Source: an uncultured Eubacteriales bacterium
Lineage (GTDB): Bacteria > Acidobacteriota > Aminicenantia > Aminicenantales > Aminicenantaceae
NCBI GenBank assembly: GCA_964440805.1
Contig: CAYTTR010000009.1
Span: 1,658 to 65,657, forward strand
Direction: 5' to 3'
DNA: 64,000 nucleotides
Shown: in pieces, positions 9,468 through 31,372 of the stretch
Position numbering within the stretch: position 1 is the first letter of the stretch
Layout: every line of letters begins with the position of its first letter
Program-made: the position numbers and the translations under genes
The notes under the pieces: generated by a model
Database searches by the model: none
Seen by the model: only the letters and a program-made list of their open reading frames with translations
Told to the model about the DNA's origin: nothing

Positions 9468-11330
9468 ATGAAACAAACAAAATATATTCCTCTAATAATG
9501 ATTATCCTCTGGCTGAGCCTGGTTACTCTCGGCTATGCTGAAAACAATGATAAAGATTTCTCCCTGAGCTTCCGCCTTGGATACCGGGCAGTGGATCAAA
9601 GTGGAACCCTCCAAAAATACAAAGAAGATATTAATTTAGAAGATGGAATGAGACTTTTTGATTTTACTTTCAAACTGAGCCCCACAAATGAATTGAGCAA
9701 GCTATTTGACCGCGTGGATATAAATGTCTTTAACTTCGGAGGAGATCCTTTCGAAGCCTTAACCCTGTCTGTCCAAAAATACAGCACTTATCAAGTCCAA
9801 TTCAGCCGGAAAAAATCATCCTATTATTACGCCGACCAACATGAAACAGGAGGAGTCATTTACAATCCTCATACCTTTGATTTCAGGAGAATCACCGACA
9901 GCGGACTCCTCAAGATTTGGCTTCTTCCTTCGGTTAACTTTTATTTGGATTTCAACCGTTATGACAAAAGCGGCGAGAGTATTACTACCCTGGATATTAA
10001 CAGGATAGAATTTGAATTTAACCAGCCGATTCAAGAAAAAAGCAAAGAAATTGCCGTTGGATTGAATGCTCAGCCTTTCAAGGAATTCTCGGTCGTACTT
10101 GAAGAAAGAATACTTGATTATGAGAACTCCAACAGTCTTTTCCTCCCAGGGTATGCTGACGGCGGCGAAGGAGCCAGGTATCCTTCTTCATTGAACTTTT
10201 TCAATCTCAATCAACCATACACCTTGAAAAGTTACAGTCATACCTTGAAAATTTATTCCCAACCAATAAAAAGAATTCTCCTCTCCGGCTCTGCTAAAAT
10301 AACCGACCAGGATCTTGATTTAACCTACCAGGAATCAGCTGATGGAATTAATTACCTGGGAAAATTTTTTGATTATTCTTTTCCGGGAATGGGCAAATTT
10401 CAAAGAAAGATTGGTCTTTATGACCTTGACCTTTCTTTTCTTTTATTTGACCGGCTGGCAATTACCGGCGTAATAAGATACCACGATTTTGAACAAGAAG
10501 GAGAAATGACTGTTTCCGGAGAGAAAAAGACCATGGATTTGAACTATGACACTCTCAGCCTGGAAGGAGGAATTCAGTACCGATTTTCATCTGTCATCGG
10601 TTTGCTTGCCGGTTATCGAAACGAGACCCGCACTCTTGAGGGAGTAGAAACGGTAGATTACGAAGAAAAAACGGTAAGACAGGGATTGTTTGGAAACATA
10701 AAGGTCAGTCCTTCCCGGAAATTTACTCTCAATGCCGATTATCAGTTTGGAACCTATGATCACCCATTTACTCTTGTTTCGCCAGCCGAATTTCACCGCT
10801 TCTCTGCCAAGGCCAGATTAAACCAAAAGCTTGTTTCTTTTTCTGCTTCCTATATTTTCACCAAATCAAAGAACGATATTTGGCAAAACGATTGGTCCTC
10901 CACCAGGCATAACTTTGCCTTTTCAGGAAGCTATAAGGGTAAGAACATTAATGGTTCGGCCAGCTATTCTTATGTTCTGCAAAAACACCAAGGGAACCGA
11001 CAGGTAGACTATCCACCCTCTTTTTCCGGACCAGCAGGAACTTTCCTCTGGGAAATCCTCTATGAAGGAAAATCAAATATCCTTAATGGAAACTTATCCG
11101 CCAAGATGGCCGAAAACTGGAATATAGGAGGATTATTTAATTATTACACTAATAAGGGTTTCTGGGAAATTTCCCGCCTCTGGCTCAAAGGTTACATTGA
11201 ATATCTTTTTGAAGAGGGGTTCTTAGCCCAAATAGGGTATCGGTATGTTGATTTCAAAGAGAAAGACTCAGGATTTAATGATTATTCAGCCAATATTCTG
11301 GAATTATCCTTTGGCTACCGCTGGGAATAA
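9468..11330 (+). CDS. outer-membrane beta-barrel porin-like protein (MtrB/OmbB-like sheath of a porin-cytochrome conduit)
   Basis: 620 aa; signal peptide MKQTKYIPLIMIILWLSLVTLGYA; Y/F/W-rich alternating strands throughout. The 11-nt and 15-nt intergenic gaps, each carrying an SD, couple it to both flanking cytochrome genes. Confidence 0.6.
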   Translation: MKQTKYIPLIMIILWLSLVTLGYAENNDKDFSLSFRLGYRAVDQSGTLQKYKEDINLEDGMRLFDFTFKLSPTNELSKLFDRVDINVFNFGGDPFEALTLSVQKYSTYQVQFSRKKSSYYYADQHETGGVIYNPHTFDFRRITDSGLLKIWLLPSVNFYLDFNRYDKSGESITTLDINRIEFEFNQPIQEKSKEIAVGLNAQPFKEFSVVLEERILDYENSNSLFLPGYADGGEGARYPSSLNFFNLNQPYTLKSYSHTLKIYSQPIKRILLSGSAKITDQDLDLTYQESADGINYLGKFFDYSFPGMGKFQRKIGLYDLDLSFLLFDRLAITGVIRYHDFEQEGEMTVSGEKKTMDLNYDTLSLEGGIQYRFSSVIGLLAGYRNETRTLEGVETVDYEEKTVRQGLFGNIKVSPSRKFTLNADYQFGTYDHPFTLVSPAEFHRFSAKARLNQKLVSFSASYIFTKSKNDIWQNDWSSTRHNFAFSGSYKGKNINGSASYSYVLQKHQGNRQVDYPPSFSGPAGTFLWEILYEGKSNILNGNLSAKMAENWNIGGLFNYYTNKGFWEISRLWLKGYIEYLFEEGFLAQIGYRYVDFKEKDSGFNDYSANILELSFGYRWE

Positions 11331-11345
11331 AAACAGGAGGAGGCT

Positions 11346-13487
11346 ATGAAAAATATACTTAGGATTTTGATGATTACTGTAATATTACCGGGAGCAGTTG
11401 TTTTCATTGCCGGAGCCAAAACGGATAATTTTACCGGACTCCTGTCCCTGGTTTCCCATGCTGAAAAGCTCTGGCAAAGTTCAGGCCATGCCGACTCAAA
11501 AGCAGAAGCCTTTACCCATTGGGATGAGGAAGGTTCTATTCCCACTTCTTGCGCCAAGTGCCACTCCACACCTGGTTTTCAAGATTTTCTGGATAATGGT
11601 GAGGTTAACAGCCCAGCCCCACTGGGCACCACAATAGAATGTGAAGCCTGTCATATAAACAAGGAAACCGGAGCTGTTCGGGAACATACAGCGGTTACTT
11701 TTCCCTCTGGAGCGGTAGTAGAGAACCTGGGACCTGAAGCTCTCTGTATGGAATGCCATCAAGGAAGAGCTTCAAAAAAAGATGTTGACATGACTATCGA
11801 CAGCGCCGGTGTCATTGATCCGGACACCCCTTCTTCTTTGTTAAGGTTTGTCAATATCCACTACTATGCGGCTGCCTCTACCCAGTTGGGAACACTTGTT
11901 GAGGGAGGATATGAATATCAAGGAAAATCATATGATGCCCGGTTTTCTCATTTAACCGGCTATAATGCCTGCATAACTTGTCATAATCCTCATTCTCTTG
12001 AAGTGGAATTGGGTCCTTGCCATACCTGCCATGAAGGAGTGAAAGACCCCAAGGATATCCGTTATTACGGGTCGTTTGTTGATTATGACGGAGACGGTAA
12101 TATCACTGAGGGTATGTTTTACGAAATTGAAGACATTAAAAACATCCTTTATCAGGTAATGCAGAGTTATGCCCGGGAAGTGATTAATATTCCTATTGTT
12201 TACGATTCTCATACTTATCCTTATTTCTTCACCGATGTAAACGGGAATGGAGAGCCTGATCCCGAAGAGTTGAACTACGGAAACCGGTATACTTCTTTTT
12301 CCGCCCGCCTGCTCCGGGCAGCTTATAATTATCAGGTTGCCCAAAAAGATCCCGCGGCTTACGCCCACGGCGGCAAATATATTATCCAGATTCTTTATGA
12401 TTCAATAGAGGATCTTAACCGTCAGCTGGCTTCTCCCCTTTCTTTAAACGTAGCCAGAGTAGATGAAGGTCATTTCGACGGATCATCTGAAGCCTGGAGA
12501 CATTGGGATGAAGACGGCGAAGTTCCAAGTTCATGTTCAAAATGCCATAGTGCCGAAGGCCTTGCCTATTTTCTGGAAAATGGAGATTTGGCTTCCCAGG
12601 AAATTTCCAATGGAATGTTATGTGCCACTTGTCATACAACCCCTCCTCATGTGAGACGAGTCGGTCAAGTGACCTTTCCTTCCGGCGAAGTAGAAGACAT
12701 GGGAGACACTTCCAATCTTTGTCTTCAGTGCCATCAAGGACGGGCTTCAAAATATTCCGTGGAGTCAACTATTGCCTCTTCTCCCGGGCCTTACGGGTTT
12801 ATAAATATCCATTACTTTCCGGCTGCAGCTGTTCTTTTCGGCTCTGAAGTCAAAGGGGGATTTGAGTACGCCGGGAAAATCTACGCCGGCCAGCAAACTT
12901 TCCCCAATCATTTAGGCAAATTCGACACTTGTGTTGAATGTCATATGGGAACAAAAAGTGAAGCCAAGCCTTACGACCATCAAGGGAGACTCCACAATGT
13001 CCAAACACCTAATCCTGAAGATTGTGTCTACTGCCATGGACAGGATATTTCCCAGCCGTATCCGGGCGCAGATCCGGCTAAATTCAGTTTTGAGGGGATC
13101 AGGCCAGCTTCCATTCCCGACTTCGATGGGGATGGAAACCGGAGTGAATCTATTAAAGACGAAATTAAGGGTCTGGAAAAAGAACTATATGCCTGGATAC
13201 AAAAATATGCTTTGGAAAAACTGGGAGCTCCCATTGTTTACGATTCTCACAACTATCCTTATTTCTTCAATGACCTCAATGCCAATGGCAAAGTCGACCC
13301 CGGGGAAAATATTTATCCCAATCAATTTAGGCAATTTAATACCCGGCTTCTCAAAGCAGCCTATAATTTTCAGCTTAGTAAAAAAGAACCCTGCGGATAT
13401 ATTCATAATGCCTGGTATGTGGCTCAGCTCTTGGTGGATTCAATTATCGACTTGGGAGGAGATTCGGCTAAATACTCCTGGCGATAA
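11346..13487 (+). CDS. large decaheme c-type cytochrome with internal tandem duplication (candidate outer-surface MtrC/OmcB-like cytochrome)
   Basis: 713 aa; signal peptide; 10 CxxCH (CAKCH, CEACH, CMECH, CITCH, CHTCH, CSKCH, CATCH, CLQCH, CVECH, CVYCH). The two ~350-aa halves share W(R)HWDE(D/E)G..P.SC.KCHS, VYDSH.YPYFF.D.N.NG..DP.E and RLL(R/K)AAYN(Y/F)Q. Confidence 0.7.
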   Translation: MKNILRILMITVILPGAVVFIAGAKTDNFTGLLSLVSHAEKLWQSSGHADSKAEAFTHWDEEGSIPTSCAKCHSTPGFQDFLDNGEVNSPAPLGTTIECEACHINKETGAVREHTAVTFPSGAVVENLGPEALCMECHQGRASKKDVDMTIDSAGVIDPDTPSSLLRFVNIHYYAAASTQLGTLVEGGYEYQGKSYDARFSHLTGYNACITCHNPHSLEVELGPCHTCHEGVKDPKDIRYYGSFVDYDGDGNITEGMFYEIEDIKNILYQVMQSYAREVINIPIVYDSHTYPYFFTDVNGNGEPDPEELNYGNRYTSFSARLLRAAYNYQVAQKDPAAYAHGGKYIIQILYDSIEDLNRQLASPLSLNVARVDEGHFDGSSEAWRHWDEDGEVPSSCSKCHSAEGLAYFLENGDLASQEISNGMLCATCHTTPPHVRRVGQVTFPSGEVEDMGDTSNLCLQCHQGRASKYSVESTIASSPGPYGFINIHYFPAAAVLFGSEVKGGFEYAGKIYAGQQTFPNHLGKFDTCVECHMGTKSEAKPYDHQGRLHNVQTPNPEDCVYCHGQDISQPYPGADPAKFSFEGIRPASIPDFDGDGNRSESIKDEIKGLEKELYAWIQKYALEKLGAPIVYDSHNYPYFFNDLNANGKVDPGENIYPNQFRQFNTRLLKAAYNFQLSKKEPCGYIHNAWYVAQLLVDSIIDLGGDSAKYSWR

Positions 13488-13502
13488 AGGAAGCATCCTC
13501 AA

Positions 13503-13700
13503 AACCGTGATAACGTGATAAGAGGAAGGGTATGGGATTCGTCCCCCGCTCGATTCCTTAGTGAGGAATCTCGCTCCCATTCGGGCTTCGCTCTCCTCTC
13601 CTCCGGAGAGAAACCATGCCCGCTCTGCCCTCATAGGGGATTCCTCATCCCATACCCTTCCTCTTCTTTAATAATACAATCCCTATCACGGAAATAGGGA
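13503..13700. repeat. GC-rich intergenic element with nested perfect inverted repeats (MITE-like or structured RNA)
   Basis: 19-bp perfect IR AAGAGGAAGGGTATGGGAT (13520-13538) / ATCCCATACCCTTCCTCTT (13647-13665); outer IR CCGTGATA (13505-13512) / TATCACGG (13684-13691); internal hairpin GATTCCTTAGTGAGGAATC. Confidence 0.5.
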
Positions 13701-13792
13701 TGCTTGCGGCAATAAATCTTTTTTGACAAAAGGGGGCTCGAATTTTATTATGGTTCCTCTTTATAAAAAAAATATCTGAAGGAGGAATAGCT

Positions 13793-15157
13793 ATGTTTAT
13801 AGGCAGAGGAAAAAAATCTTTCTTTTTAAGTTTTTTCTTATCATTATTGGTCATTACTCCTCTTCTCTTTTCAATTGAAGAGGTAGCCGGGGTCAAGGAT
13901 ACAAAAAATATCCTGCCTGAAAAAGAGCGGGCCAGAGTCTGGAATGAATGGCTTCGCTGGAGACTTGATAATATAATTCCGGAACTTATGAGGCGGGAAG
14001 GGATTGATATGTGGCTGATTATCAATCGTGAATATAATGAAGATCCGGTCTATCTCAGCCTGATGCCCTGGCCGACTATGGCTGCCCGCCGGACTTCCAT
14101 TTTGATCTTTTTTGACCACGGAGATGAGAAAGGAGTAGAAAGGCTTTCCGGAAGTTACTATGACACTCCTGGGTGGTATAAAACAACCTGGAAAGACAAG
14201 ACAAAAAAACAGTTTGTAAGTCTTGCCGAAACCATCCGGAAACTAAATCCCCGAAAAATCGGCATCAATGTTTCACCTACATTCAGGTTCGGTGACGGAT
14301 TGACTGCCAGTCTGAAAGACAAGCTGATAGAGCACCTGGGGCCGGATCTTTCAAAAAGACTGGTTTCAGCAGAAAATCTGTGTCTCGGCTGGCTGGAAAC
14401 CCGTAGTCCCATGGAAATCAGTGTCTACCGACACATCTGTGGCATCGCTCATGATATCATCGCTGAGTTTTTTTCAAACCAGGTTATCACGCCAGATATC
14501 ACCACCACTGATGATGTCATCTGGTGGATTCGCCAGAGAATTACAGACCTGGGACTGGATACCTGGTTTCAACCATCTATATCAATCCAGCGTTATGCCA
14601 CAGAGGCAGAGAAATATAAAGAGAATCCAAAGGTCATCCGGAGGGGAGATCTTCTTCATTGTGATGTAGGCATCAAGTACTTGGGACTTTGTACCGATAT
14701 GCAATGGCAGGCTTATGTTTGCCGGATTGGAGAAAAGAATGCACCTGAAGGAATAAAACGTGCCTTCGAACGGGCTTTAAAGGTCGGCGAAATCTTTATG
14801 GCCGAGTTTAAAGCCGGCCGGACCGGAAATGAAATCACTGATTCAGCCATGGAAAAAGCTGCTGCTGCCGGTTTACGGCCTTTGATTTATTCACATCCCC
14901 TGGGTTTACACGGTCACGCAGCCGGAACTTCAATGGATGCCCGGCCTGAGGATAGGGCTCCGGAAGGAATTCGCCTGGAAATGGAATATCCTCTTAATTA
15001 CAATACCTGCTACGCCATTGAATTCAGCAGCACCTCCAGCATTCCGGAATGGGATGGACAAGACGTCCGGATAGGTTTCGAAGAAGATGCTGTCTTCACT
15101 GAAAATGGCTGCCGCTATATTGACGGCCGCCAGAAAAAGATTCTTCTAATAAAGTGA
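13793..15157 (+). CDS. secreted M24-family metallopeptidase (Xaa-Pro aminopeptidase/prolidase-like)
   Basis: 454 aa; signal peptide; pita-bread fold metal-ligand motifs (HPLGLHGHAAG, EMEYPL, YAIE). Confidence 0.55.
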   Translation: MFIGRGKKSFFLSFFLSLLVITPLLFSIEEVAGVKDTKNILPEKERARVWNEWLRWRLDNIIPELMRREGIDMWLIINREYNEDPVYLSLMPWPTMAARRTSILIFFDHGDEKGVERLSGSYYDTPGWYKTTWKDKTKKQFVSLAETIRKLNPRKIGINVSPTFRFGDGLTASLKDKLIEHLGPDLSKRLVSAENLCLGWLETRSPMEISVYRHICGIAHDIIAEFFSNQVITPDITTTDDVIWWIRQRITDLGLDTWFQPSISIQRYATEAEKYKENPKVIRRGDLLHCDVGIKYLGLCTDMQWQAYVCRIGEKNAPEGIKRAFERALKVGEIFMAEFKAGRTGNEITDSAMEKAAAAGLRPLIYSHPLGLHGHAAGTSMDARPEDRAPEGIRLEMEYPLNYNTCYAIEFSSTSSIPEWDGQDVRIGFEEDAVFTENGCRYIDGRQKKILLIK

Positions 15158-15177
15158 ACTCCCAAGGATAAAAAAGA

Positions 15178-15657
15178 TCAAGTTATTACTTTGTCAATAT
15201 CTTTTTCGCCATAATCGGCAAATTCCTGAGCCAGAGCATATTCGCTTTTCAACATAAGAAAGTGGCTGTGCTCGATCCGGCTGAGATACTCTAAAATAGA
15301 CCTGCTTTTGCCTTCGGTTTTCCGGGAGAATTCTGCATAAAACCTCTCAGCAGCTTCTTCTGCTTTCATTGCCTGGTTTAATATATCTACTAAGGAAGTA
15401 TCGGCCTTTAAGTTTATTGAAGGAATTAAGACATCATCTGCTTTTTCCGGAATATCAAGATTTTCCTGAGGATATAATTTTTCCGTCAGTTTTTCCAATA
15501 TCTGCCTGTGCTTTTCTTCTTCAAAAGCCAGCATCCGGAATTTTTCTTTAAGAAGCGGATTCTGGAGGCGGGATGAAATTTCAGAGTATACTTGGTAGCT
15601 GTCAATTTCTGACCGTATTGCCAGCCCGAGGAGTTCAGGCACATCTTTATCTATCAT
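15178..15657 (-). CDS. ferritin-like diiron-domain protein (rubrerythrin-like, no rubredoxin domain)
   Basis: 159 aa; paired E..H four-helix-bundle motifs (EEEKHRQILEKL, RIEHSHFLML); paralogous to 25398..25865 and 33852..34304. Confidence 0.55.
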   Translation of the reverse strand: MIDKDVPELLGLAIRSEIDSYQVYSEISSRLQNPLLKEKFRMLAFEEEKHRQILEKLTEKLYPQENLDIPEKADDVLIPSINLKADTSLVDILNQAMKAEEAAERFYAEFSRKTEGKSRSILEYLSRIEHSHFLMLKSEYALAQEFADYGEKDIDKVIT

Positions 15658-15721
15658 TGATTTGCTCCTTTACAATAAATTGGCTTATCCATCTTTGAAG
15701 TTAATTCTAATTACCCAAAAA

Positions 15722-17143
15722 TCAACCTTTCATAACTCCAACCGGAATTACCTTGGCCACCAGACTGCCCAATCCGGCCCGGTGGGATACCTGGACTACT
15801 TCATCAACATCCTTATAGGCTCCGGAAGCTTCTTCAGCCACACCTTTCCAGGAAGTAGATTTAAGAGAGATACCTTTATTTTCCAAATCTTTTTTTATTT
15901 CTTCTCCTCGAAATTTCCTTAAAGCTTCATGCCGGGACATCAAACGCCCTGCACCATGAGCAGTGGAACCGAAACTGAGTTCTTCAGCTTCTTTTGTGCC
16001 GCAGAGAATATAGGAAGCTGTGCCCATGCTTCCGGGAATAATAACGGGTTGTCCAACAGTTCTTAACGTCTCAGGAATTTCTTGGCGGCCGGCACCGAAA
16101 CTCCTGGTGGCTCCTTTCCGGTGAACACAGAGCCTGAGATTTTTGCCCTCAATCCGGTGAACTTCGAATTTAGCCACATTATGACAAACGTCATAAACCT
16201 GATCCATTCCCTTATCTGTTCCCAAAATTTTTTTAAATACATCTCTTACCCAGTGAGCAATCATCTGCCTGTTGGCAAAGGCGTAATTTACTGCAGCACA
16301 CATGGCTTTATAATATTTTTTCCCCAAATCAGAGTTTATGGGAGCATAGGTAAGCTCCCGGTCAGCTAAATGCTTAGTACCGAAAGTATTCTCCATCTGC
16401 CTGATATAGTCGGAAGCTACCTGGTGACCAAGTCCCCGGCTTCCGCAATGGATCATAACCATGATTTGTCCTTTTGAATGGATTCCGAAAACCCCGGCTG
16501 TTTTGGAATCAAAGATTTCTTCAACCTGCTGAATTTCCAAGAAATGATTTCCTGCTCCCAGAGTCCCCAACTGGGGCAATCCTCTTTCTTTGGCCCTCCT
16601 GGAAACACAGCCGGGATCAGCATCCTTCATCCTTCCATATTCTTCTGTCCTCTCCAGATCTCTCCGAGTGCCAAAGCCATTAGTTACAGTCCATTCTGCT
16701 CCCCGGCGCAAAACTTCTTCCAACACTTGAAAGCTGATCTCTTTTGACCTCCCTTTTCCTACTCCGGCAGGAACCTGATTAAAAATTCCATTCATCAAAG
16801 CCCCCAGGTTGTCTCTGAGTTCATCAACTTTGTAATCTGTCTTTAACAGCCGGACTCCGCAGTTTATGTCATACCCCACTCCTCCCGGAGAAATCACTCC
16901 TTCTTCAATGTCAAAAGCAGCCACACCCCCTATGGGAAATCCATACCCTTGATGTCCATCGGGCATAAGAAAGGAAGCTTTCCTGATACCGGGGAGACAG
17001 GCAACATTTACTGCCTGGTGCAGTGTTTTATCCTTCCTCATGCTTTCCAGAAGCTTGGATGAAGCATAGATAAAAGCCGGCACCTTCATCTTGCCTTCTT
17101 CCGGGATTTTCCAAACATTTTCTTTAATTTTTTTTATATTCAT
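15722..17143 (-). CDS. rtcB: RNA-splicing ligase RtcB
   Basis: 473 aa; hallmark RtcB motifs (HQGYGFPIGGVAAFD, GAGNHFLEIQ, CGSRGLGHQVA, HNVA). Confidence 0.9.
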   Translation of the reverse strand: MNIKKIKENVWKIPEEGKMKVPAFIYASSKLLESMRKDKTLHQAVNVACLPGIRKASFLMPDGHQGYGFPIGGVAAFDIEEGVISPGGVGYDINCGVRLLKTDYKVDELRDNLGALMNGIFNQVPAGVGKGRSKEISFQVLEEVLRRGAEWTVTNGFGTRRDLERTEEYGRMKDADPGCVSRRAKERGLPQLGTLGAGNHFLEIQQVEEIFDSKTAGVFGIHSKGQIMVMIHCGSRGLGHQVASDYIRQMENTFGTKHLADRELTYAPINSDLGKKYYKAMCAAVNYAFANRQMIAHWVRDVFKKILGTDKGMDQVYDVCHNVAKFEVHRIEGKNLRLCVHRKGATRSFGAGRQEIPETLRTVGQPVIIPGSMGTASYILCGTKEAEELSFGSTAHGAGRLMSRHEALRKFRGEEIKKDLENKGISLKSTSWKGVAEEASGAYKDVDEVVQVSHRAGLGSLVAKVIPVGVMKG

Positions 17144-17154
17144 TTTCTTCTCCT

Positions 17155-17577
17155 TTAAACATCAACCACAACCTCGATAGAAACAGTTTTGTTACTTTTA
17201 ATTTTCATTTCATTATAGGTTATGGCTTTTATTTCTCCGGTTATTTCATATTTTTCTTTCCTCTCGTCCCCTTTCAAGATACAATCCAAATAGTGAAGAT
17301 TTTTTTCTTTTTTTATCCTCAGATTATCCGCTCTTTTAAAAACAAGACCTTTGGTTTCAAAAAGAAAAAGAATTTCCTCCAGAAAACTAACCAGAAGCTG
17401 CTCCAAATCCTTGCCTTTCACCTGAACTTTGGGTTCGAGTTTTTCTTCAATCGTGCCCGGATCCCACATCAAAGAACAAAAAGCCAAGGCTGCATTGGAA
17501 AAAGCTTCCTCAAGTGAAGCCCCTCTTGCTTGAAACTTAATATCTCCTGTATGCGGAAGGTAACGAAACTTTTTCAC
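17155..17577 (-). CDS. archease (RtcB activator)
   Basis: 140 aa; N-terminal YLPHTGDIKF..G.SLEEAFSNAALAF archease signature; directly downstream of rtcB. Confidence 0.75.
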   Translation of the reverse strand: MKKFRYLPHTGDIKFQARGASLEEAFSNAALAFCSLMWDPGTIEEKLEPKVQVKGKDLEQLLVSFLEEILFLFETKGLVFKRADNLRIKKEKNLHYLDCILKGDERKEKYEITGEIKAITYNEMKIKSNKTVSIEVVVDV

Positions 17578-18945
17578 TCAGCTTTCTCCCAGTTCCTTTA
17601 TTTTAACTTTCTGGATAATTTTTCTCTGCAGCTCCTTTAGAGACGGTGATATTTCCACCGGAAAAAGGGGAGGCCGGGAAGATAATGATTTATATCTTTC
17701 CTCAAGGAGTTTGAATTCCTCCTGAAAAACTTCTCTTATTCCTGTCAACCGGGGAAGCTCGCCCTTTATTTTTCCTCCCTTCATAACTTCTGAAAGAAGG
17801 CATTCGGCACCATCCATCTCTTCCTGCCGAAGCCCGATTACATCCTTTACCAAATTTCCTTTTTTATCTTTGAATCTAAAAATCTGCTTATCTGATGTTA
17901 GAATTTTTTTCCCTGGGCTTAACTTTAAAACCGGCTGCCCGTCGTATTTAACCAGCTTATAGGCCATATCAGAATAAGGAGCGTCTGCAGATACTCCCAT
18001 TTTAGTCCCTACTCCGAATGAATCTATTTCCGCCTTTTCTTTCAAGATTTTCTGAATTTTATATTCATCAAAAGCTCCAGAAGCGAAAATTTGAGTGCCC
18101 TTCAGACCTTCCCGGTCTAAAATTTGCCTGGCTCTCCGGCTTAATTGAGCCATGTCCCCACTGTCCAGTCTTATCCCCAGGAGATTATGTCCCCGGCCTT
18201 TCATTTGTTTTCCCACCTGAGCCGCTTTACGGCATCCTTCAATAGTATCGTAAGTGTCCACAAGCAAGACCGTGTTTTCAGGAAAAGAACGGGCATAAGC
18301 CTGAAATGCCTCCATTTCATTGGGAAAACTGGATATATAAGAATGGGCCATGGTTCCATAAACAGGAATTCCATAAACTTTCCCAGCCATAACGTTACTT
18401 GTCCCTATGAACCCCGCTAAGTAGCTGGACCGGGCTGCTTTCATTCCGGCATCTATTCCCTGGCATCTTCTAAGGGAAAAATCAACCAGCTTTCTTCCTT
18501 GAGCGGCATAAAAACAGCGGGCTGCCTTGGTTGCCAGCAAAACCTGAACATTAACCGCATTAATAATAAAAGTCTCCACTATTTGAGATTCAATAATGGG
18601 AGCAGTCACTTCCATAATCGGCTCATTAGCAAAGAAAATGCGTCCTTCCGGGATAGCCCTGACCTCTCCTGAAAAATACAATTTTTCCAGATAGGAAAGA
18701 AAACTTTCTTTAAATAATTTAAGGCCGGCCAAATAATCGAGCTCTTCAGAGGTAAAACTTAGGTTTTCCAGGTAGCGAAGCACATCCTCGAGACCGGCTG
18801 AAACAAAATATTTCCGGCCGGGCGGATAATTCCGGATGAAAAGGCTGAAAGTGGCCGGAGCAAACATTTTATTTTCCCAATAGGAAGCAGCCATGGTCAG
18901 TTCATAAAGATCGGTTAATAAAGCCTCGTTTTCTCTATCAATCAT
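17578..18945 (-). CDS. pncB: nicotinate phosphoribosyltransferase
   Basis: 455 aa; NAPRTase family N-terminus (ALLTDLYELTMAASYW) and catalytic region. Confidence 0.8.
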   Translation of the reverse strand: MIDRENEALLTDLYELTMAASYWENKMFAPATFSLFIRNYPPGRKYFVSAGLEDVLRYLENLSFTSEELDYLAGLKLFKESFLSYLEKLYFSGEVRAIPEGRIFFANEPIMEVTAPIIESQIVETFIINAVNVQVLLATKAARCFYAAQGRKLVDFSLRRCQGIDAGMKAARSSYLAGFIGTSNVMAGKVYGIPVYGTMAHSYISSFPNEMEAFQAYARSFPENTVLLVDTYDTIEGCRKAAQVGKQMKGRGHNLLGIRLDSGDMAQLSRRARQILDREGLKGTQIFASGAFDEYKIQKILKEKAEIDSFGVGTKMGVSADAPYSDMAYKLVKYDGQPVLKLSPGKKILTSDKQIFRFKDKKGNLVKDVIGLRQEEMDGAECLLSEVMKGGKIKGELPRLTGIREVFQEEFKLLEERYKSLSSRPPLFPVEISPSLKELQRKIIQKVKIKELGES

Positions 18946-19040
18946 GATTTATTCCTTCTTTATTAAATAAAGGAGTAGTAACTTTTTATTAATTATTATT
19001 CAGATTCCTCCAGAAATCAAATTTCAAATTTTTTTGAATA

Positions 19041-19192
19041 GGAGAACATCAGGTATGCCCAGAGCGACATTGAGGCGTTATTCTTCTCAAGCTACTCTTC
19101 GAGGGAATCCGACTTTGTCGGACGGCGAGGATGCAGTGAGAGAAAGGCGAAAAAGCGCCGAAGTAAAGCAAAGAGCATACCTGATGTTCTCC
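19041..19192. repeat. GC-rich intergenic element bounded by a perfect 18-bp inverted repeat
   Basis: GGAGAACATCAGGTATGC (19041-19058) / GCATACCTGATGTTCTCC (19175-19192) flanking a ~116-bp GC-rich core; same architecture as 13503-13700. Confidence 0.5.
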
Positions 19193-19296
19193 TGTTCAAT
19201 GGATTCAACCACACAAAAAGGAAGAAAACCAAATGTTTTAACAAAATGATATTGAGGCGATAGGTTAAATAAATTCTTTCGGATTAGTCAACATTT

Positions 19297-19305
19297 TTGG
19301 TATAA
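19297..19305 (+). promoter_or_regulatory. candidate extended -10 promoter element (TGgTATAAT) for the Cbc-type cytochrome gene
   Basis: TGGTATAAT at 19297-19305, 35 nt upstream of ATG 19340, with GGAGAAGGA SD at 19321-19329. Confidence 0.35.
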
Positions 19306-19339
19306 TGGACGGCAGAAAAAATGGAGAAGGATTGGGGTC

Positions 19340-20911
19340 ATGAGAACAAAAAAGAGAGCCAATTCATCCCTCTGGGTTATGCTGATATTCTTTTGTCTTG
19401 CCGGAATATGCTATCTCTTTCCTCAAGAGTCTAACCAAGACTATGAAAAAATAACCAGTGATGATTGCAGCGGATGCCATGAGAAAAGTAAACATGGAAC
19501 AGACTTCACACAAGACCTCTCCCATTCTATCCATGAAGGATTTGAATGCTTAGACTGCCATCTCGATAAGAAAACCTTCCCTCATCAAAAAATACCTGAT
19601 TTCGAATTACCTTGCCATAGCTGCGCTTCCTGTCATGAAGAAGAAGCCCAAACATATAAAATTCACGGATGAGCTTTGGTAGCCGAATGTCAAGATGCGC
19701 CGTCTTGTGCAGGCTGTCACGGTGAGCTGGTAAGCCGAGGTCAGACAGATGCTCCGGTATGCACTGACTGCCATGGAGAACACGGCATCTTTTCTCCTAA
19801 TGATCCCCGCTCACCAGTTTCCAGCATCAGATTGGCTGAAGCCACCTGTGCCCCCTGTCATGAATCCGTCAGGCTCTCGGAAAAGTACGGCCTTCCCCTG
19901 GGGCGTTTGGCCTCATTTATAGACAGTTACCACGGCCTGAAAACAAAAGCCGGAGATCAATATGTGGCCAATTGTGCTTCCTGCCACGGAGTTCATAAAA
20001 TACTGCCCAGTTCTGATCCGGAGTCCACAATCCATCCCGCTAATCTTCAAAAAACTTGCGGCGAGTGTCATTCCGGGATTTCTGCTGAATTGGCCCAATC
20101 CCCCATTCACGGCCTGGGAGGTGAAGGCCTCCAGACCAAAGCTGCCAGCATTGTTCAGAATATCTATATTGCCGCCATTATTATTATTATCGGACTAATG
20201 GGCATCCATTGGCTTATCGACCTTATCAGGCAGATAATTTTGGTTGCCCGAAAAAAACCTCAGGTCAGGCGGATGAATGCCAATGAACTCTGGCAACATA
20301 CCCTTCTCATGCTCAGTTTTATTGTCCTGGTTGTCACCGGCTTCTCTCTCAGGTTTGATCAGGCCTGGATTACACGGTTTTTCTTCGGCTGGGAAGGCGG
20401 TTTTAAACTGAGAGGAACCATCCACAGAGTGGCTTCGGTTGTTCTCATCGTGACTACTATATGGCACGTTATTTACCTTTTCTCCAGGAGAGGCCGGAGA
20501 TTTTTTGTCGATATGTGGCCCCGCTTAGGTGATTTCCGCGACTTTATTCAGAAAATCTTGTTTAATCTGGGACTTTCCAAAAAAGAACCCCGGTTCGGGA
20601 GATTCAGTTATATCGAGAAAGCTGAGTATTGGGCTCTTATCTGGGGAAATGCAGTGATGATAGTAACCGGAATACTTCTTTGGTTTGACAATTATTTTGT
20701 CAGAATTTTCCCCAAAGGAGTGCTTGATGTTTCTTTGGTCATTCATTATTACGAAGCCATTCTGGCTTCTCTTGCCATTTTAATCTGGCATCTGTACTCT
20801 ACCGTCTTTAATCCCCGCGTCTATCCCATGAATCCTTCATGGCTTACCGGCAAAATGCCGGAAGACATGTTTATTCACGAACACCAAGCAGTCAAAAAAG
20901 AAGAGATTTAA
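19340..20911 (+). CDS. inner-membrane multiheme cytochrome c fused to diheme cytochrome b (Cbc/CbcL-like quinol oxidoreductase), interrupted by one in-frame TGA at 19670-19672
   Basis: Track ORFs 19340..19672 and 19676..20911 are in the same frame, separated by TGA plus one codon. Only the first ORF has a signal peptide. There are 3+5 CxxCH motifs, then five His-bearing TM helices of PF01292 type (HydC/FdnI-like). Confidence 0.6.
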
Positions 20912-21218
20912 TTAGCCTGGATTATTCACCAGTCGAGGTTGCCGTAGATACGAGGCACAGGGCACGCAGCTGTGGTCTCTCCACCGCAAGTGTCCTGTAA
21001 CGAAGTAGATGCGCCAAGCGCGGCTCGCCTGAAGGGTAAAAAAGGCTGGTTTTAGATAAGATTTGATGAAAGGATTTAATGAACTTAATTTCTTTACCTA
21101 CACCACAATAAAACCTCTTAAGTCATAGGTATTTGTGATATAAAAAGTATCGGCCTTTTTTATGAATGGTTCAGGTTAGTCAAAGAAAATAAAAAATAAA
21201 ATAAACAAACAAATTATT

Positions 21219-22229
21219 CTAAAAGACCCCGGCAATCTTCTGACTACAATGTGGACATAAGCCTTTTCTGATGAGGCTTTCTGCCAGGAAGAATCCATTC
21301 CTCTTGATTAAAATTTTCCCACACGATGGACAAAGGGTGTCCTCTGATTCTCCCAAAACATTACCGATATAAAGATAGTGAAGACCTTCTTCTTTTCCAA
21401 TCTCAACCGCTCGCCTTAATCTCTCCATGGGAGTGGGGCGGGAATCCGTAAATTTATAATCGGGATGAAAACGGCTGATATGCCAGGGGATATTGGGATC
21501 AACGCCGGCCAGAAACCGGGCTATCTCCCGCAGCTCCTTATCACTGTCGTTCTCTCCTGGGATTATCAAGGTGGTTACCTCAACCCATATATCATTTTTT
21601 TTCAAAAAGCTTATACAATCCAAAACCGGCTGTAAGCGGGCCTTACACATTTTTTTATAAAATTCATCTCTAAATGATTTAAGATCCACATTGGCAGCAT
21701 CCAGCCAGGGCGAAATTTTTTCAACAGCCTCCTGGGTTAGGTAACCGTTAGTGACAAAATTATTTCCCAGGCCTTCTTTTTTTGCCAGCTTGGCTGTCTC
21801 ATAGGCATACTCAAAAAAAATTGTCGGTTCAGTATAAGTATAAGAAATACTGCTGCAGTCATTGGTTAAGGCTTGCCTGACCACTTCTTCAGGGGAAAGT
21901 TTATACCCGGAAAAAACCTTTTCTTTCTGCCGGGAAGCCTGGGATATCTGCCAATTCTGACAAAAAGGGCATTGAAAGTTGCAGCCGATAGTGGCAATGG
22001 AAAAGGCTTTAGTGCCGGGAAGAAAGTGATATAAAGGTTTTTTTTCAATCGGATCTACATGGGCTGCTATAACTTCTCCGAAAACATGGGTATAAAGTTT
22101 GCCCTCCTTGTTTTCTCTAACCCGGCAAATTCCCCAGTTCCCTGGATTTATTTCACACCTATGAGCACAGAGAAAACAGTTGACCCGGTCTTCATCAAGA
22201 GTCTTATAGAGCATGGCTTCTCGAATCAT
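21219..22229 (-). CDS. radical SAM enzyme, AmmeMemoRadiSam/PFL-activase-like
   Basis: 336 aa; CNFQCPFCQNWQIS CxxxCxxC cluster motif with QN..IS tail; additional N-terminal Cys pairs. Confidence 0.6.
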   Translation of the reverse strand: MIREAMLYKTLDEDRVNCFLCAHRCEINPGNWGICRVRENKEGKLYTHVFGEVIAAHVDPIEKKPLYHFLPGTKAFSIATIGCNFQCPFCQNWQISQASRQKEKVFSGYKLSPEEVVRQALTNDCSSISYTYTEPTIFFEYAYETAKLAKKEGLGNNFVTNGYLTQEAVEKISPWLDAANVDLKSFRDEFYKKMCKARLQPVLDCISFLKKNDIWVEVTTLIIPGENDSDKELREIARFLAGVDPNIPWHISRFHPDYKFTDSRPTPMERLRRAVEIGKEEGLHYLYIGNVLGESEDTLCPSCGKILIKRNGFFLAESLIRKGLCPHCSQKIAGVF

Positions 22230-29711: not shown

Positions 29712-29882
29712 TATTCTGTTCCTCCTAAAAGATAATCCAGGTTAAATAATATCTTATTACTTTTTTATTCCAAACTCCATTAAAACCTGAAGAGTTTTTA
29801 ACTTGTAATCTCCTTCTATTTCTTATCAATTCTATATGATTACTGTATATTTTAAAGCTTACCCATCTTAAAGTCAACAACA

Positions 29883-30033
29883 GGGGACTTTCCCCAAAGG
29901 GACACCTCTTCCCCAAGACATTTAAATTTTTTTTGTTCCTATCTTTTAATAATAATTGATCGTAAGGATAATAAATCTAATTCTCTTCTGGAAAGGGTGT
30001 CCTTTTAGGGAACGCCCTTTAGGGAACGTCCCC
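29883..30033. repeat. inverted pair of REP-like elements (copy 2 forward at 29883-29914; tandem reverse-complement copy 3 at 29995-30033) flanking an AT-rich 80-bp spacer
   Basis: GGGGACTTTCCCCAAAGGGACACCTCTTCCCC versus GGGTGTCCTTTTAGGGAACGCCCTTTAGGGAACGTCCCC; same family as 6539-6570 and 61738-61771. Confidence 0.5.
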
Positions 30034-30034
30034 T

Positions 30035-31372
<1,338 letters not shown>

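What the first reader, a model, noticed from the sequence alone, without database searches (positions are those of the whole stretch)
19041..19192. Second IR-bounded GC-rich element (perfect 18-bp inverted repeat) in the pncB/cytochrome intergenic region
GGAGAACATCAGGTATGC ... GCATACCTGATGTTCTCC flank a 116-bp GC-rich core. The size class and terminal-IR architecture match the 13503-13700 element, but the internal sequence is different. Two such elements within 6 kb, both adjacent to multiheme cytochrome genes, suggest either a family of MITEs with variable cargo or a class of long-stem structured RNAs.
Basis: seen in the sequence. Interest (0 to 1): 0.6.

Follow-up and report, generated by a model that had tools for sequence, protein, structure and literature searches.

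The report
Patchy structured RNA element beside pncB
The inverted-repeat element is real and is a recently gained, stem-extended copy of a small, previously undescribed family of folded RNA-like elements that sit next to the NAD-salvage gene pncB in a few Aminicenantes genomes; its function is unknown.

Summary
The inverted repeat is confirmed and is slightly larger than reported. Arms 19034-19058 and 19175-19199 pair at 24 of 25 positions, 19 of them in a perfect run, around a 116-nt core with 51-54% G+C. This is far beyond chance. It has no Rfam match, no second copy in the window, and no sequence similarity to the 13.5-kb element. Two close relatives (pncB 92% and 78% identical) keep both flanks but lack the roughly 175-200-nt block, so it is a lineage-specific insertion. 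The element also has homologues directly downstream of pncB in two more distant Aminicenantes MAGs, and a 5' remnant in a third. The three full copies share identical internal-loop sequences, while 13 of 37 stem pairs change on both sides. G·U pairs favour the + strand. My best reading is a divergent copy of an undescribed, patchily distributed structured-RNA family with a long closing helix. A classical MITE fits less well, because the termini covary rather than stay conserved and I saw no multiple copies. The element at 13.5 kb belongs to a separate, also patchy, hairpin family. Adjacency to cytochrome genes is incidental, whereas adjacency to pncB recurs. Transcription and function are untested.

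The parts
19034..19058 (+). 5' arm of the long closing helix (25 nt). Its inner part, 19049-19060, corresponds to helix P1 of the family.
   Evidence: P1 columns 5-16 of alignment A10.
19175..19199 (+). 3' arm of the closing helix. The inner part 19173-19184 is the P1 3' strand. T19039 opposite G19194 forms a G.U pair only on the + strand.
19061..19073 (+). Conserved 5' internal loop AGAGCGACATTGA. The stretch AGCGACATTGA is identical in all three full copies. G19064-C19065 can pair with G19168-C19169.
19074..19079 (+). Helix P2, 5' strand (GGCGTT). It pairs with 19154-19159 (AGCGCC). The homologues have AGATTT/AAATCT, so three pairs changed on both sides.
19095..19133 (+). Apical domain. Helix P4 is 19095-19101 with 19126-19133, around the conserved CGAGGG and GAG(G/T)ATG. 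The apical hairpin P5 is TCCGAC-TTT-GTCGGA (19108-19122), with three pairs changed on both sides.
19154..19172 (+). P2 3' strand (19154-19159), followed by the conserved 3' internal loop GAAGTAAAGCAAA. The family pattern is GAAG..AGC.CAAG.
19028..19229 (.). Block that is absent from the orthologous intergenic region of two relatives. The exact limits are ambiguous: either 19028-19202 or 19035-19229.
   Evidence: Alignment A2; sequences.
19021..19034 (.). Left-hand candidate flanking direct repeats: ATTTCAA (19021-19027) or CAAATTTTTT (19025-19034). TCAAATT is tandemly duplicated at 19017-19030.
   Evidence: Read and compared. Inconclusive because the context is A+T-rich.
19203..19239 (.). Right-hand partners of the candidate direct repeats: ATTCAA (19203-19208) or CAAATGTTTT (19230-19239).
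   Evidence: Read. Inconclusive.
19055..19249 (+). 64-codon ORF, preceded by AGGAG at 19040-19044, that spans the element and ends outside it. One database record calls it a protein. It is probably spurious.
   Evidence: Its only match is itself among 5.8 billion and 1.84 billion proteins. The frame is not conserved: the L004 copy reads ATG GCT TAA.

Best explanation
The element at 19034-19199 is a divergent copy of a small, undescribed family of structured RNA-like elements, about 165-200 nt long, found in Aminicenantes-type Acidobacteriota. The family has four features. A long terminal helix, 19-25 bp, joins the two ends. A conserved asymmetric internal loop has AGCGACAUUGA on the 5' side and GAAG..AGC.CAAG on the 3' side. 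A short helix P2 follows. The apical domain is variable and ends in a small hairpin. The window copy lacks a roughly 45-nt subdomain present in the other copies, and it has the longest and most perfect terminal helix. The functional strand is the + strand. In two other genomes the element lies directly after pncB on the pncB sense strand, so it is probably made there as the tail of the pncA-pncB transcript. In this genome it arrived recently, as a discrete block, between the divergent pncB and cytochrome promoters. I infer, without direct evidence, that it is transcribed into a stable small RNA. In that reading the terminal helix defines and protects the ends (a perfect 25-bp duplex is a natural RNase III substrate), and the invariant internal loop is the working site that binds a protein or small molecule, possibly connected with NAD salvage. 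What is shown: the repeat, the insertion polymorphism, the homology, the compensatory changes and the strand bias. What is inferred: transcription, processing and function.
For: Homology: nhmmer with the element alone hits L004:5383-5465 (E 6.7e-5) and L006:5377-5458 (E 0.02) in about 0.4 Mb. A 5'-block profile also finds a 30-nt remnant in L007. Structure: on alignment A10, 90% of 111 cells form standard pairs against 33-44% when partners are slid. Thirteen of 37 pairs changed on both sides, and only 1 of 500 shuffles reached this. The loops are sequence-identical. Strand: L004 and L006 fold at -49.5 and -66.5 kcal/mol on + against -32.3 and -52.4 on -, and eleven paired cells are G.U on the + strand. 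Model R1 scores 139, 101 and 99 bits on the three copies and finds nothing else. Insertion: L018 (pncB 92% identical) and L020 (78%) keep both flanks but lack the block. The element is not protein-coding. The repeat is far beyond chance.
Against: There are only three full copies, and two of them are close to each other (pncB 89% identical), so the covariation rests on few independent comparisons. I also derived the tested structure from these same sequences. No promoter or terminator was recognised at any copy. In the window the homologous strand points away from pncB and lies upstream of the cytochrome promoter, so transcription there is unproven. The family is dispensable: it is absent in L051 and reduced to a remnant in L007. 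There is no expression data and no functional clue beyond the neighbouring genes. All comparison loci were fetched through pncB, which biases the apparent association with pncB.
Confidence: 0.55

Rival explanations
1. It is a miniature inverted-repeat transposable element (MITE), a non-autonomous DNA transposon. The 25-bp arms are the terminal inverted repeats recognised by a transposase encoded elsewhere, and the fold is a by-product.
For: Filled site in the window against empty sites in close relatives. Its size is about 170 nt, it has terminal inverted repeats and it encodes no protein. Short direct repeats can be read at either plausible boundary (one search compared). The unrelated 13.5-kb element is also insertion-polymorphic at another locus.
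Against: There is no second copy in the 64-kb window. All 23 arm-18-mer matches in 241 million metagenome records are single-arm chance matches. Nothing was found in plasmids, phages or viral contigs. Among homologues the termini differ in sequence but stay complementary, while internal loops are invariant, which is the opposite of the MITE pattern. G.U pairs favour one strand. The direct repeats are ambiguous in A+T-rich DNA. The whole genome could not be searched.
Confidence: 0.2
2. It is a neutral hairpin created locally by inverted duplication or template switching during replication. It is kept perfect only because it is young, and it has no function.
For: The interior is weakly palindromic as well (17 of 1000 shuffles reach the observed score). 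The outer arms are almost perfect. The element lies in the least constrained part of a divergent promoter region.
Against: The homologues at a different locus in other genomes share both the 5' and the 3' loop sequences, and these are not complements of each other. A local inverted duplication cannot explain that. The G+C-rich core has no counterpart in the relatives' empty sites.
Confidence: 0.1
3. It is a 6S-like RNA, a rod-shaped decoy that binds RNA polymerase through a central bubble that imitates an open promoter.
For: It has a rod shape, a 19-25-bp closing stem, a central pair of 13-nt loops and an apical stem, with a total length of 166-200 nt. This general architecture of 6S RNA is recalled from my own knowledge.
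Against: There is no match to any Rfam 6S model even at E <= 10. Two nucleotides in each loop strand can pair with each other. The L004 and L006 copies have a branched apical domain. The distribution is patchy, with loss and decay in sister genomes, unlike a core 6S gene.
Confidence: 0.07
4. It encodes a small protein. Candidates are the 64-residue + strand ORF and a 28-residue - strand peptide (MLFALLRRFFAFLSLHPRRPTKSDSLEE). In the second case the ribosome-binding site would be sequestered by the long helix, as in type I toxin mRNAs.
For: AGGAG lies 10 nt before an ATG on both strands inside the arms. One public record calls the 64-residue ORF a protein.
Against: The ORF has no homologue in 5.8 billion or 1.84 billion proteins. 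It runs out of the insertion into flanking DNA. The frame is interrupted in homologues (L004 reads ATG GCT TAA). The ribosome-binding-site-plus-ATG arrangement appears on both strands simply because the arms are complementary. The hydrophobic stretch of the 28-mer is too short and is interrupted by two arginines.
Confidence: 0.03

Closest known systems
Whole-length palindromic intergenic repeats and MITEs (ERIC/YPAL of enterobacteria and yersiniae, Correia elements of Neisseria); recalled from my own knowledge
   Same: They are 100-170 nt intergenic elements that fold end to end into a hairpin. They are present or absent at orthologous sites and can be transcribed into RNase III-sensitive stems.
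   Different: Those families have tens to hundreds of near-identical copies per genome and conserved termini. Here a single copy was seen, the termini covary between homologues, and the internal loops are the conserved part.
6S RNA (Rfam RF00013 and related models)
   Same: A rod-like RNA of about 170-200 nt with a long closing stem and a central two-sided loop.
   Different: No model match. The distribution is patchy and the element is dispensable. Two of the three members have a branched apical domain.
NAD+-I riboswitch (nadA motif) of Acidobacteria
   Same: Same phylum, and adjacency to an NAD-metabolism gene.
   Different: The riboswitch has two tandem bulged stem-loops with an ACANCCCC bulge and lies exclusively upstream of nadA (PMC7297122, PMC6859854). 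This element has neither feature. It lies downstream of pncB or divergent from it, and it has no Rfam match.
The 13.5-kb element of the same window (13505-13691)
   Same: G+C-rich, about 150-190 nt, closed by a perfect 19-bp helix and intergenic. It has homologues at a different locus in another genome, with compensatory changes, and it is present or absent between relatives.
   Different: There is no sequence similarity. Its interior is multi-branched rather than rod-like. Its orthologue is retained, with a decayed stem, in L020, which lacks the element studied here.

Membership tests
MITE (non-autonomous DNA transposon) | Terminal inverted repeats and small size, with no transposase gene | tested here: met
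   25-nt arms, a 166-nt element and no conserved ORF.
MITE (non-autonomous DNA transposon) | Several to many copies with conserved termini in the genome | tested here: not met
   There is one copy in the 64-kb window. Arm matches in metagenome contigs are all single-arm chance hits. The homologues' termini differ in sequence. The whole genome was not available, so absence of other copies is not proven.
MITE (non-autonomous DNA transposon) | Target-site duplication of fixed length | tested here: inconclusive
   Two alternative short direct repeats can be read (ATTTCAA/ATTCAA, or CAAATTTTTT/CAAATGTTTT) in A+T-rich DNA (one search compared).
MITE (non-autonomous DNA transposon) | Filled and empty sites among relatives | tested here: met
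   L018 and L020 keep the flanks and lack the block.
Any described RNA family (Rfam 15) | Covariance-model match | tested here: not met
   No family at gathering score in the window. Only noise at E <= 10 on the element and on the L004 copy, and none at E <= 1 on the L004 and L006 loci.
6S RNA | Closing stem, large central bubble and terminal stem; one conserved gene per genome | tested here: inconclusive
   The architecture is roughly compatible. However, there is no model match, and the element is lost or decayed in sister genomes.
NAD+-I riboswitch (nadA motif) | Two tandem bulged stem-loops with an ACANCCCC bulge, upstream of nadA | tested here: not met
   The features are taken from PMC7297122 and PMC6859854. 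The + strand has no such bulge or tandem domains, the position relative to genes is wrong, and there is no Rfam hit.
Retron msr-msd RNA | Flanking inverted repeats and an adjacent reverse transcriptase gene | tested here: not met
   The neighbours are pncB, cytochrome genes or a formiminotransferase-cyclodeaminase gene, with no reverse transcriptase. The retron features are recalled from my own knowledge.
Bacterial Y RNA (Rsr/RtcB-linked) | A neighbouring Ro60 (Rsr) gene and a tRNA-like module on a long stem | tested here: not met
   RtcB and archease are next to pncB in the window. However, the ten genes scanned from 9468 to 22229 include no Rsr. The L004 and L006 copies have no archease-RtcB genes after pncB, where the next gene is a formiminotransferase-cyclodeaminase. 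There is no Y RNA model hit.
Same family as the 13.5-kb element | Shared sequence or shared termini | tested here: not met
   blastn finds nothing between them. Model R1 does not hit 13.5 kb. The interior architectures differ.

The most novel reading that the evidence does not exclude
The element is a self-contained, horizontally moving structured-RNA gene cassette. A stable RNA with an invariant binding loop, enclosed by a processing helix, would be gained and lost as a unit beside NAD-salvage genes and would act on them or on their product pool. It could be, for example, a new ligand- or protein-binding RNA class tied to nicotinate or NAD metabolism. It would be one of several such cassette families (this one, the 13.5-kb one and the 20.9-kb one) that populate Aminicenantes intergenic regions.
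Probability: 0.15. Interest if true: 0.75.

Novelty: new variant of a known kind. Interest (0 to 1): 0.5.

Why it matters
If the reading holds, this is a new structured-RNA family from a poorly studied, uncultivated lineage. It shows the classical signature of function, with invariant loops and covarying stems, yet it behaves like an accessory, insertable unit. Its recurrent position next to pncA/pncB gives a testable lead: binding of NAD-pathway metabolites, or of a protein. The same 64-kb window and its relatives contain at least two further unrelated hairpin families with the same patchy behaviour. That pattern points to a general and so far undescribed way in which these A+T-rich genomes acquire G+C-rich structured intergenic modules. 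On the practical side, the 64-residue 'hypothetical protein' called over the element is probably an annotation artefact.

Tried and rejected
- **Rfam scans.** I ran them at gathering score and at permissive thresholds on the window, the element, the 13.5-kb element, the 20.9-kb region and the L004/L006 copies. They returned only noise.
- **Arm 18-mer scan of metagenome contigs**. It gave 23 loci, all single-arm chance matches. This collection may not contain the lineage at all, so the negative result is weak.
- **Core 21-mer and 5'-loop pattern in viral contigs**. Nothing real was found.
- **Distant blastn against plasmids and phages**. No match.
- **ORF-as-probe trick**. The ORF matches only itself.
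- **Exact-protein look-ups to recover the source contig**. The proteins are not on record.
- **Orthologous pncB loci at about 60-68% identity**. The element is absent, or the gene context differs.
- **Similarity of the element to the conserved block upstream of the cytochrome promoter.** It is limited to one 15-mer and is marginal (36 of 1000 shuffles).
- **Common ancestry with the 20.9-kb element or the L049 inverted-repeat element.** The alignment shows none.
- **MAFFT on the full-length copies.** It misaligned the 3' halves. I therefore removed the extra subdomain of L004 and L006 before testing the pairs.
- **Third inverted repeat at 47.5 kb.** It lies inside a long ORF.

Full report
**1. 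The observation**

The two 18-mers are at 19041-19058 and 19175-19192, exactly as reported. The perfect run is 19 nt. The repeat extends to 25 nt (19034-19058 / 19175-19199) with a single T.G opposition and a 116-nt spacer. G+C is 0.51-0.54 inside the element and 0.22-0.30 in the flanks.

In 100 random windows of the same first-order composition, the longest perfect arm at 30-300 nt spacing averaged 12.5 nt and never exceeded 16. Two 19-nt cases in one window are therefore not chance. Both strands fold as a rod, at -79.4 kcal/mol on + and -73.0 on -, with z about -9. The element at 13520-13665 is also real, but blastn finds no similarity between the two and no further copy of either in the window. 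A third repeat at 47.5 kb lies inside a long ORF that I take to be the folP gene.

**2. Context**

The region belongs to an Aminicenantes-type acidobacterium, judged from the best pncB and peptidase relatives. The element sits in a 394-nt gap between two divergent units:
- pncB (17578-18945, - strand), which heads a pncB-archease-RtcB operon;
- a cytochrome operon starting at 19340 on the + strand.

An extended -10 box, TGGTATAAT, at 19298-19306 lies downstream of the element. A pncB promoter-like site at 19020-18992 lies on the element's other side. The element therefore lies between the two promoters, not in either leader.

**3. It is an insertion relative to close relatives**

A MAG contig with pncB 92% identical (L018) and Logan contigs with pncB 78% identical (L020 to L022) conserve both flanking blocks. 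These are ...GAAATCAAATT on one side and AACAAAATGATATTGAGGCGATAGG... on the other. Between the blocks they have only 12-20 nt, where the window has about 215 nt. Parsimony favours a gain in the window lineage after its split from L018.

The exact limits are ambiguous, either 19028-19202 or 19035-19229. Each reading is flanked by a short imperfect direct repeat, which is weak evidence in A+T-rich DNA.

**4. Searches for other copies**

- The arm 18-mer matched 23 metagenome contigs, all with one arm only, as expected by chance.
- Plasmids, phages and viral contigs gave nothing.
- The 71-codon ORF over the element matches only itself among 5.8 billion and 1.84 billion proteins.
- No Rfam family matches.

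**5. The turning point**

nhmmer with the element alone against all fetched loci hit L004:5383-5465 (E 6.7e-5) and L006:5377-5458 (E 0.02). Both hits lie about 20 nt after the pncB stop codon, on the pncB sense strand. They sit between pncA-pncB and a convergent formiminotransferase-cyclodeaminase gene. These copies are about 180-200 nt long.

They share the following with the window element:
- the 5' loop AGCGACATTGA, which is identical in all three;
- CGAGGG and GAG(G/T)ATG around an apical hairpin;
- the 3' loop GAAG..AGC.CAAG, followed by ..CATA.. of the closing helix.

They also carry an extra subdomain of about 45 nt (TCTGACCCACGGACGGGGGGAGTTGCGCA...), which the window copy lacks.

L007, an outgroup to L004, L006 and L051 by pncB identity, keeps only the first 30 nt or so. 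L051 to L053 have 11 nt between the two stop codons and no element. At that locus the element is therefore old and has been repeatedly lost.

**6. Structure**

I removed the extra subdomain, which gave a clean alignment (A10). I then defined six helices from the single-sequence folds and tested them. The results:

| Measure | Value |
|---|---|
| Pairs tested | 37 |
| Cells forming standard pairs | 90% |
| Same, with 3' partners slid by 1-3 columns | 33-44% |
| Pairs changed on both sides | 13 (six in the closing helix, three in P2, three in the apical hairpin, one in P4) |
| Shuffles reaching the observed covariation | 1 of 500 |

In P2 the window copy has GGCGUU/AGCGCC where the homologues have AGAUUU/AAAUCU.

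Eleven paired cells are G.U on the + strand. In agreement with that, the L004 and L006 copies fold much better on + than on - (-49.5 against -32.3 kcal/mol, and -66.5 against -52.4). Invariant loops with covarying stems and a strand bias are the signature of selection on an RNA fold, or at least on a single-strand fold.

Two caveats apply. There are only three sequences, two of them closely related. The structure was also derived from these same sequences.

A covariance model (R1) scores 139, 101 and 99 bits on the three copies. It finds nothing else in 290 kb of window plus relatives, nor in 35 viral loci that carry the loop 15-mer by chance.

**7. What it is not**

- **Not protein-coding.** The ORF is an orphan, it runs out of the insertion, and the L004 copy reads ATG GCT TAA.
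- **Not a classical MITE.** No multiple copies were seen, and among homologues the termini covary rather than being conserved. The filled/empty-site behaviour is MITE-like, however.
- **Not the NAD+-I riboswitch.** That RNA has tandem bulged stem-loops with an ACANCCCC bulge and lies upstream of nadA (PMC7297122, PMC6859854). None of this applies here.
- **Not a recognisable 6S, Y or retron RNA.** There are no model hits. No Rsr or reverse transcriptase gene was found among the neighbours scanned.

No conserved sigma-70-type promoter or intrinsic terminator accompanies any copy. In L004 and L006 the element is most simply the 3' tail of the pncAB transcript.

**8. Relation to the 13.5-kb element**

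That element (full extent about 13505-13691, including an outer CCGTGATA/TATCACGG repeat) belongs to a different family.
- It has an orthologue in L020 with 80% identity, a decayed stem, no compensatory change, and a pseudogenised cytochrome gene upstream.
- It has a 76%-identical homologue at an unrelated locus in L049, between a sigma-70 gene and a trehalose synthase gene. Three closing-stem pairs there are compensatory, and the copy is absent from the syntenic L050.

The two window elements share a lifestyle: each is a patchy, insertable, G+C-rich, stem-closed module. They do not share ancestry or termini. Neither depends on cytochrome genes.

**9. Verdict**

The most likely identity is a recently acquired, stem-extended member of an undescribed structured-RNA family that recurs next to pncB (confidence about 0.55). 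Its function is unknown. My working model is a stable RNA whose terminal helix sets its ends and whose invariant internal loop binds a partner. The main rival is a mobile DNA element, and this is not mutually exclusive with an RNA-level role.

Noticed in passing
window 13505-13691; L020:15530-15712(-); L049:3216-3371(+): The 13.5-kb element has its own family. L020 has an orthologue with a decayed stem next to a pseudogenised cytochrome gene. L049 has a 76%-identical copy at an unrelated locus, between sigma-70 and trehalose synthase genes, with compensatory closing-stem changes. That copy is absent from the syntenic L050.
   Followed up: partly
window 20912-21052; L050:5874-5922; L007:7387-7435(-): A third G+C-rich imperfect rod lies directly after the cytochrome b-type gene. 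It folds much better on + (-58.8 kcal/mol) than on - (-41.5). Its 5' motif, CCTGGATTATTCAYSAGYCGAGRT..GCAGATRCGAGGC..AGGGC, is conserved downstream of unrelated genes in two other genomes. It is absent in L020 and has no Rfam match.
   Followed up: partly
window 29882-30035: Another strong intergenic fold (z -5) has G+C-rich arms (AAAGGGACACC / GGTGTCCTTT) around an A+T-rich interior, plus a tandem CCTTTAGGGAACG repeat. It lies just after the stop codon of the gene at 30035-31357 (-).
   Followed up: no
L049:5673-5827: An unrelated element with 31-nt arms (94% complementary, 93-nt spacer) sits between trehalose synthase and peptidase M24. At the same place L050 carries the 20.9-kb-type motif instead. 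The left arm shares TTATTCAT with that motif.
   Followed up: partly
L001 (Logan SRR7048220 contig), equal to window 19100-20960: The only public short-read contig with this exact sequence ends at the hairpin apex of the element on one side and inside the 20.9-kb hairpin on the other. This suggests that these folds break assemblies or reduce coverage.
   Followed up: no
window 19066-19080 and 19248-19262: The 15-mer GACATTGAGGCGTTA, which overlaps the element's conserved 5' loop, recurs as GATATTGAGGCGATA in the block upstream of the cytochrome promoter. That block is conserved in relatives that lack the element. The match is marginal: 4 of 100 and 36 of 1000 shuffles reach it.
   Followed up: partly
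window 19017-19030 and 13506-13521: Both hairpin elements are immediately preceded by a perfect tandem duplication of 7-8 nt, TCAAATT x2 and CGTGATAA x2. L020 has only one copy of the latter.
   Followed up: no
window 19055-19249 (+): A public record annotates a 64-residue protein over the element (P0121). It has no homologue anywhere and is probably spurious.
   Followed up: yes
window 15722-18945 (-); L018, L020, L023-L025: A pncB-archease-RtcB gene order is conserved across this clade. This is an unusual partner for an RNA-ligase pair.
   Followed up: no
L020:15780-16160: The multiheme cytochrome gene upstream of the peptidase M24 gene is broken into frameshifted fragments in this relative.
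   Followed up: no
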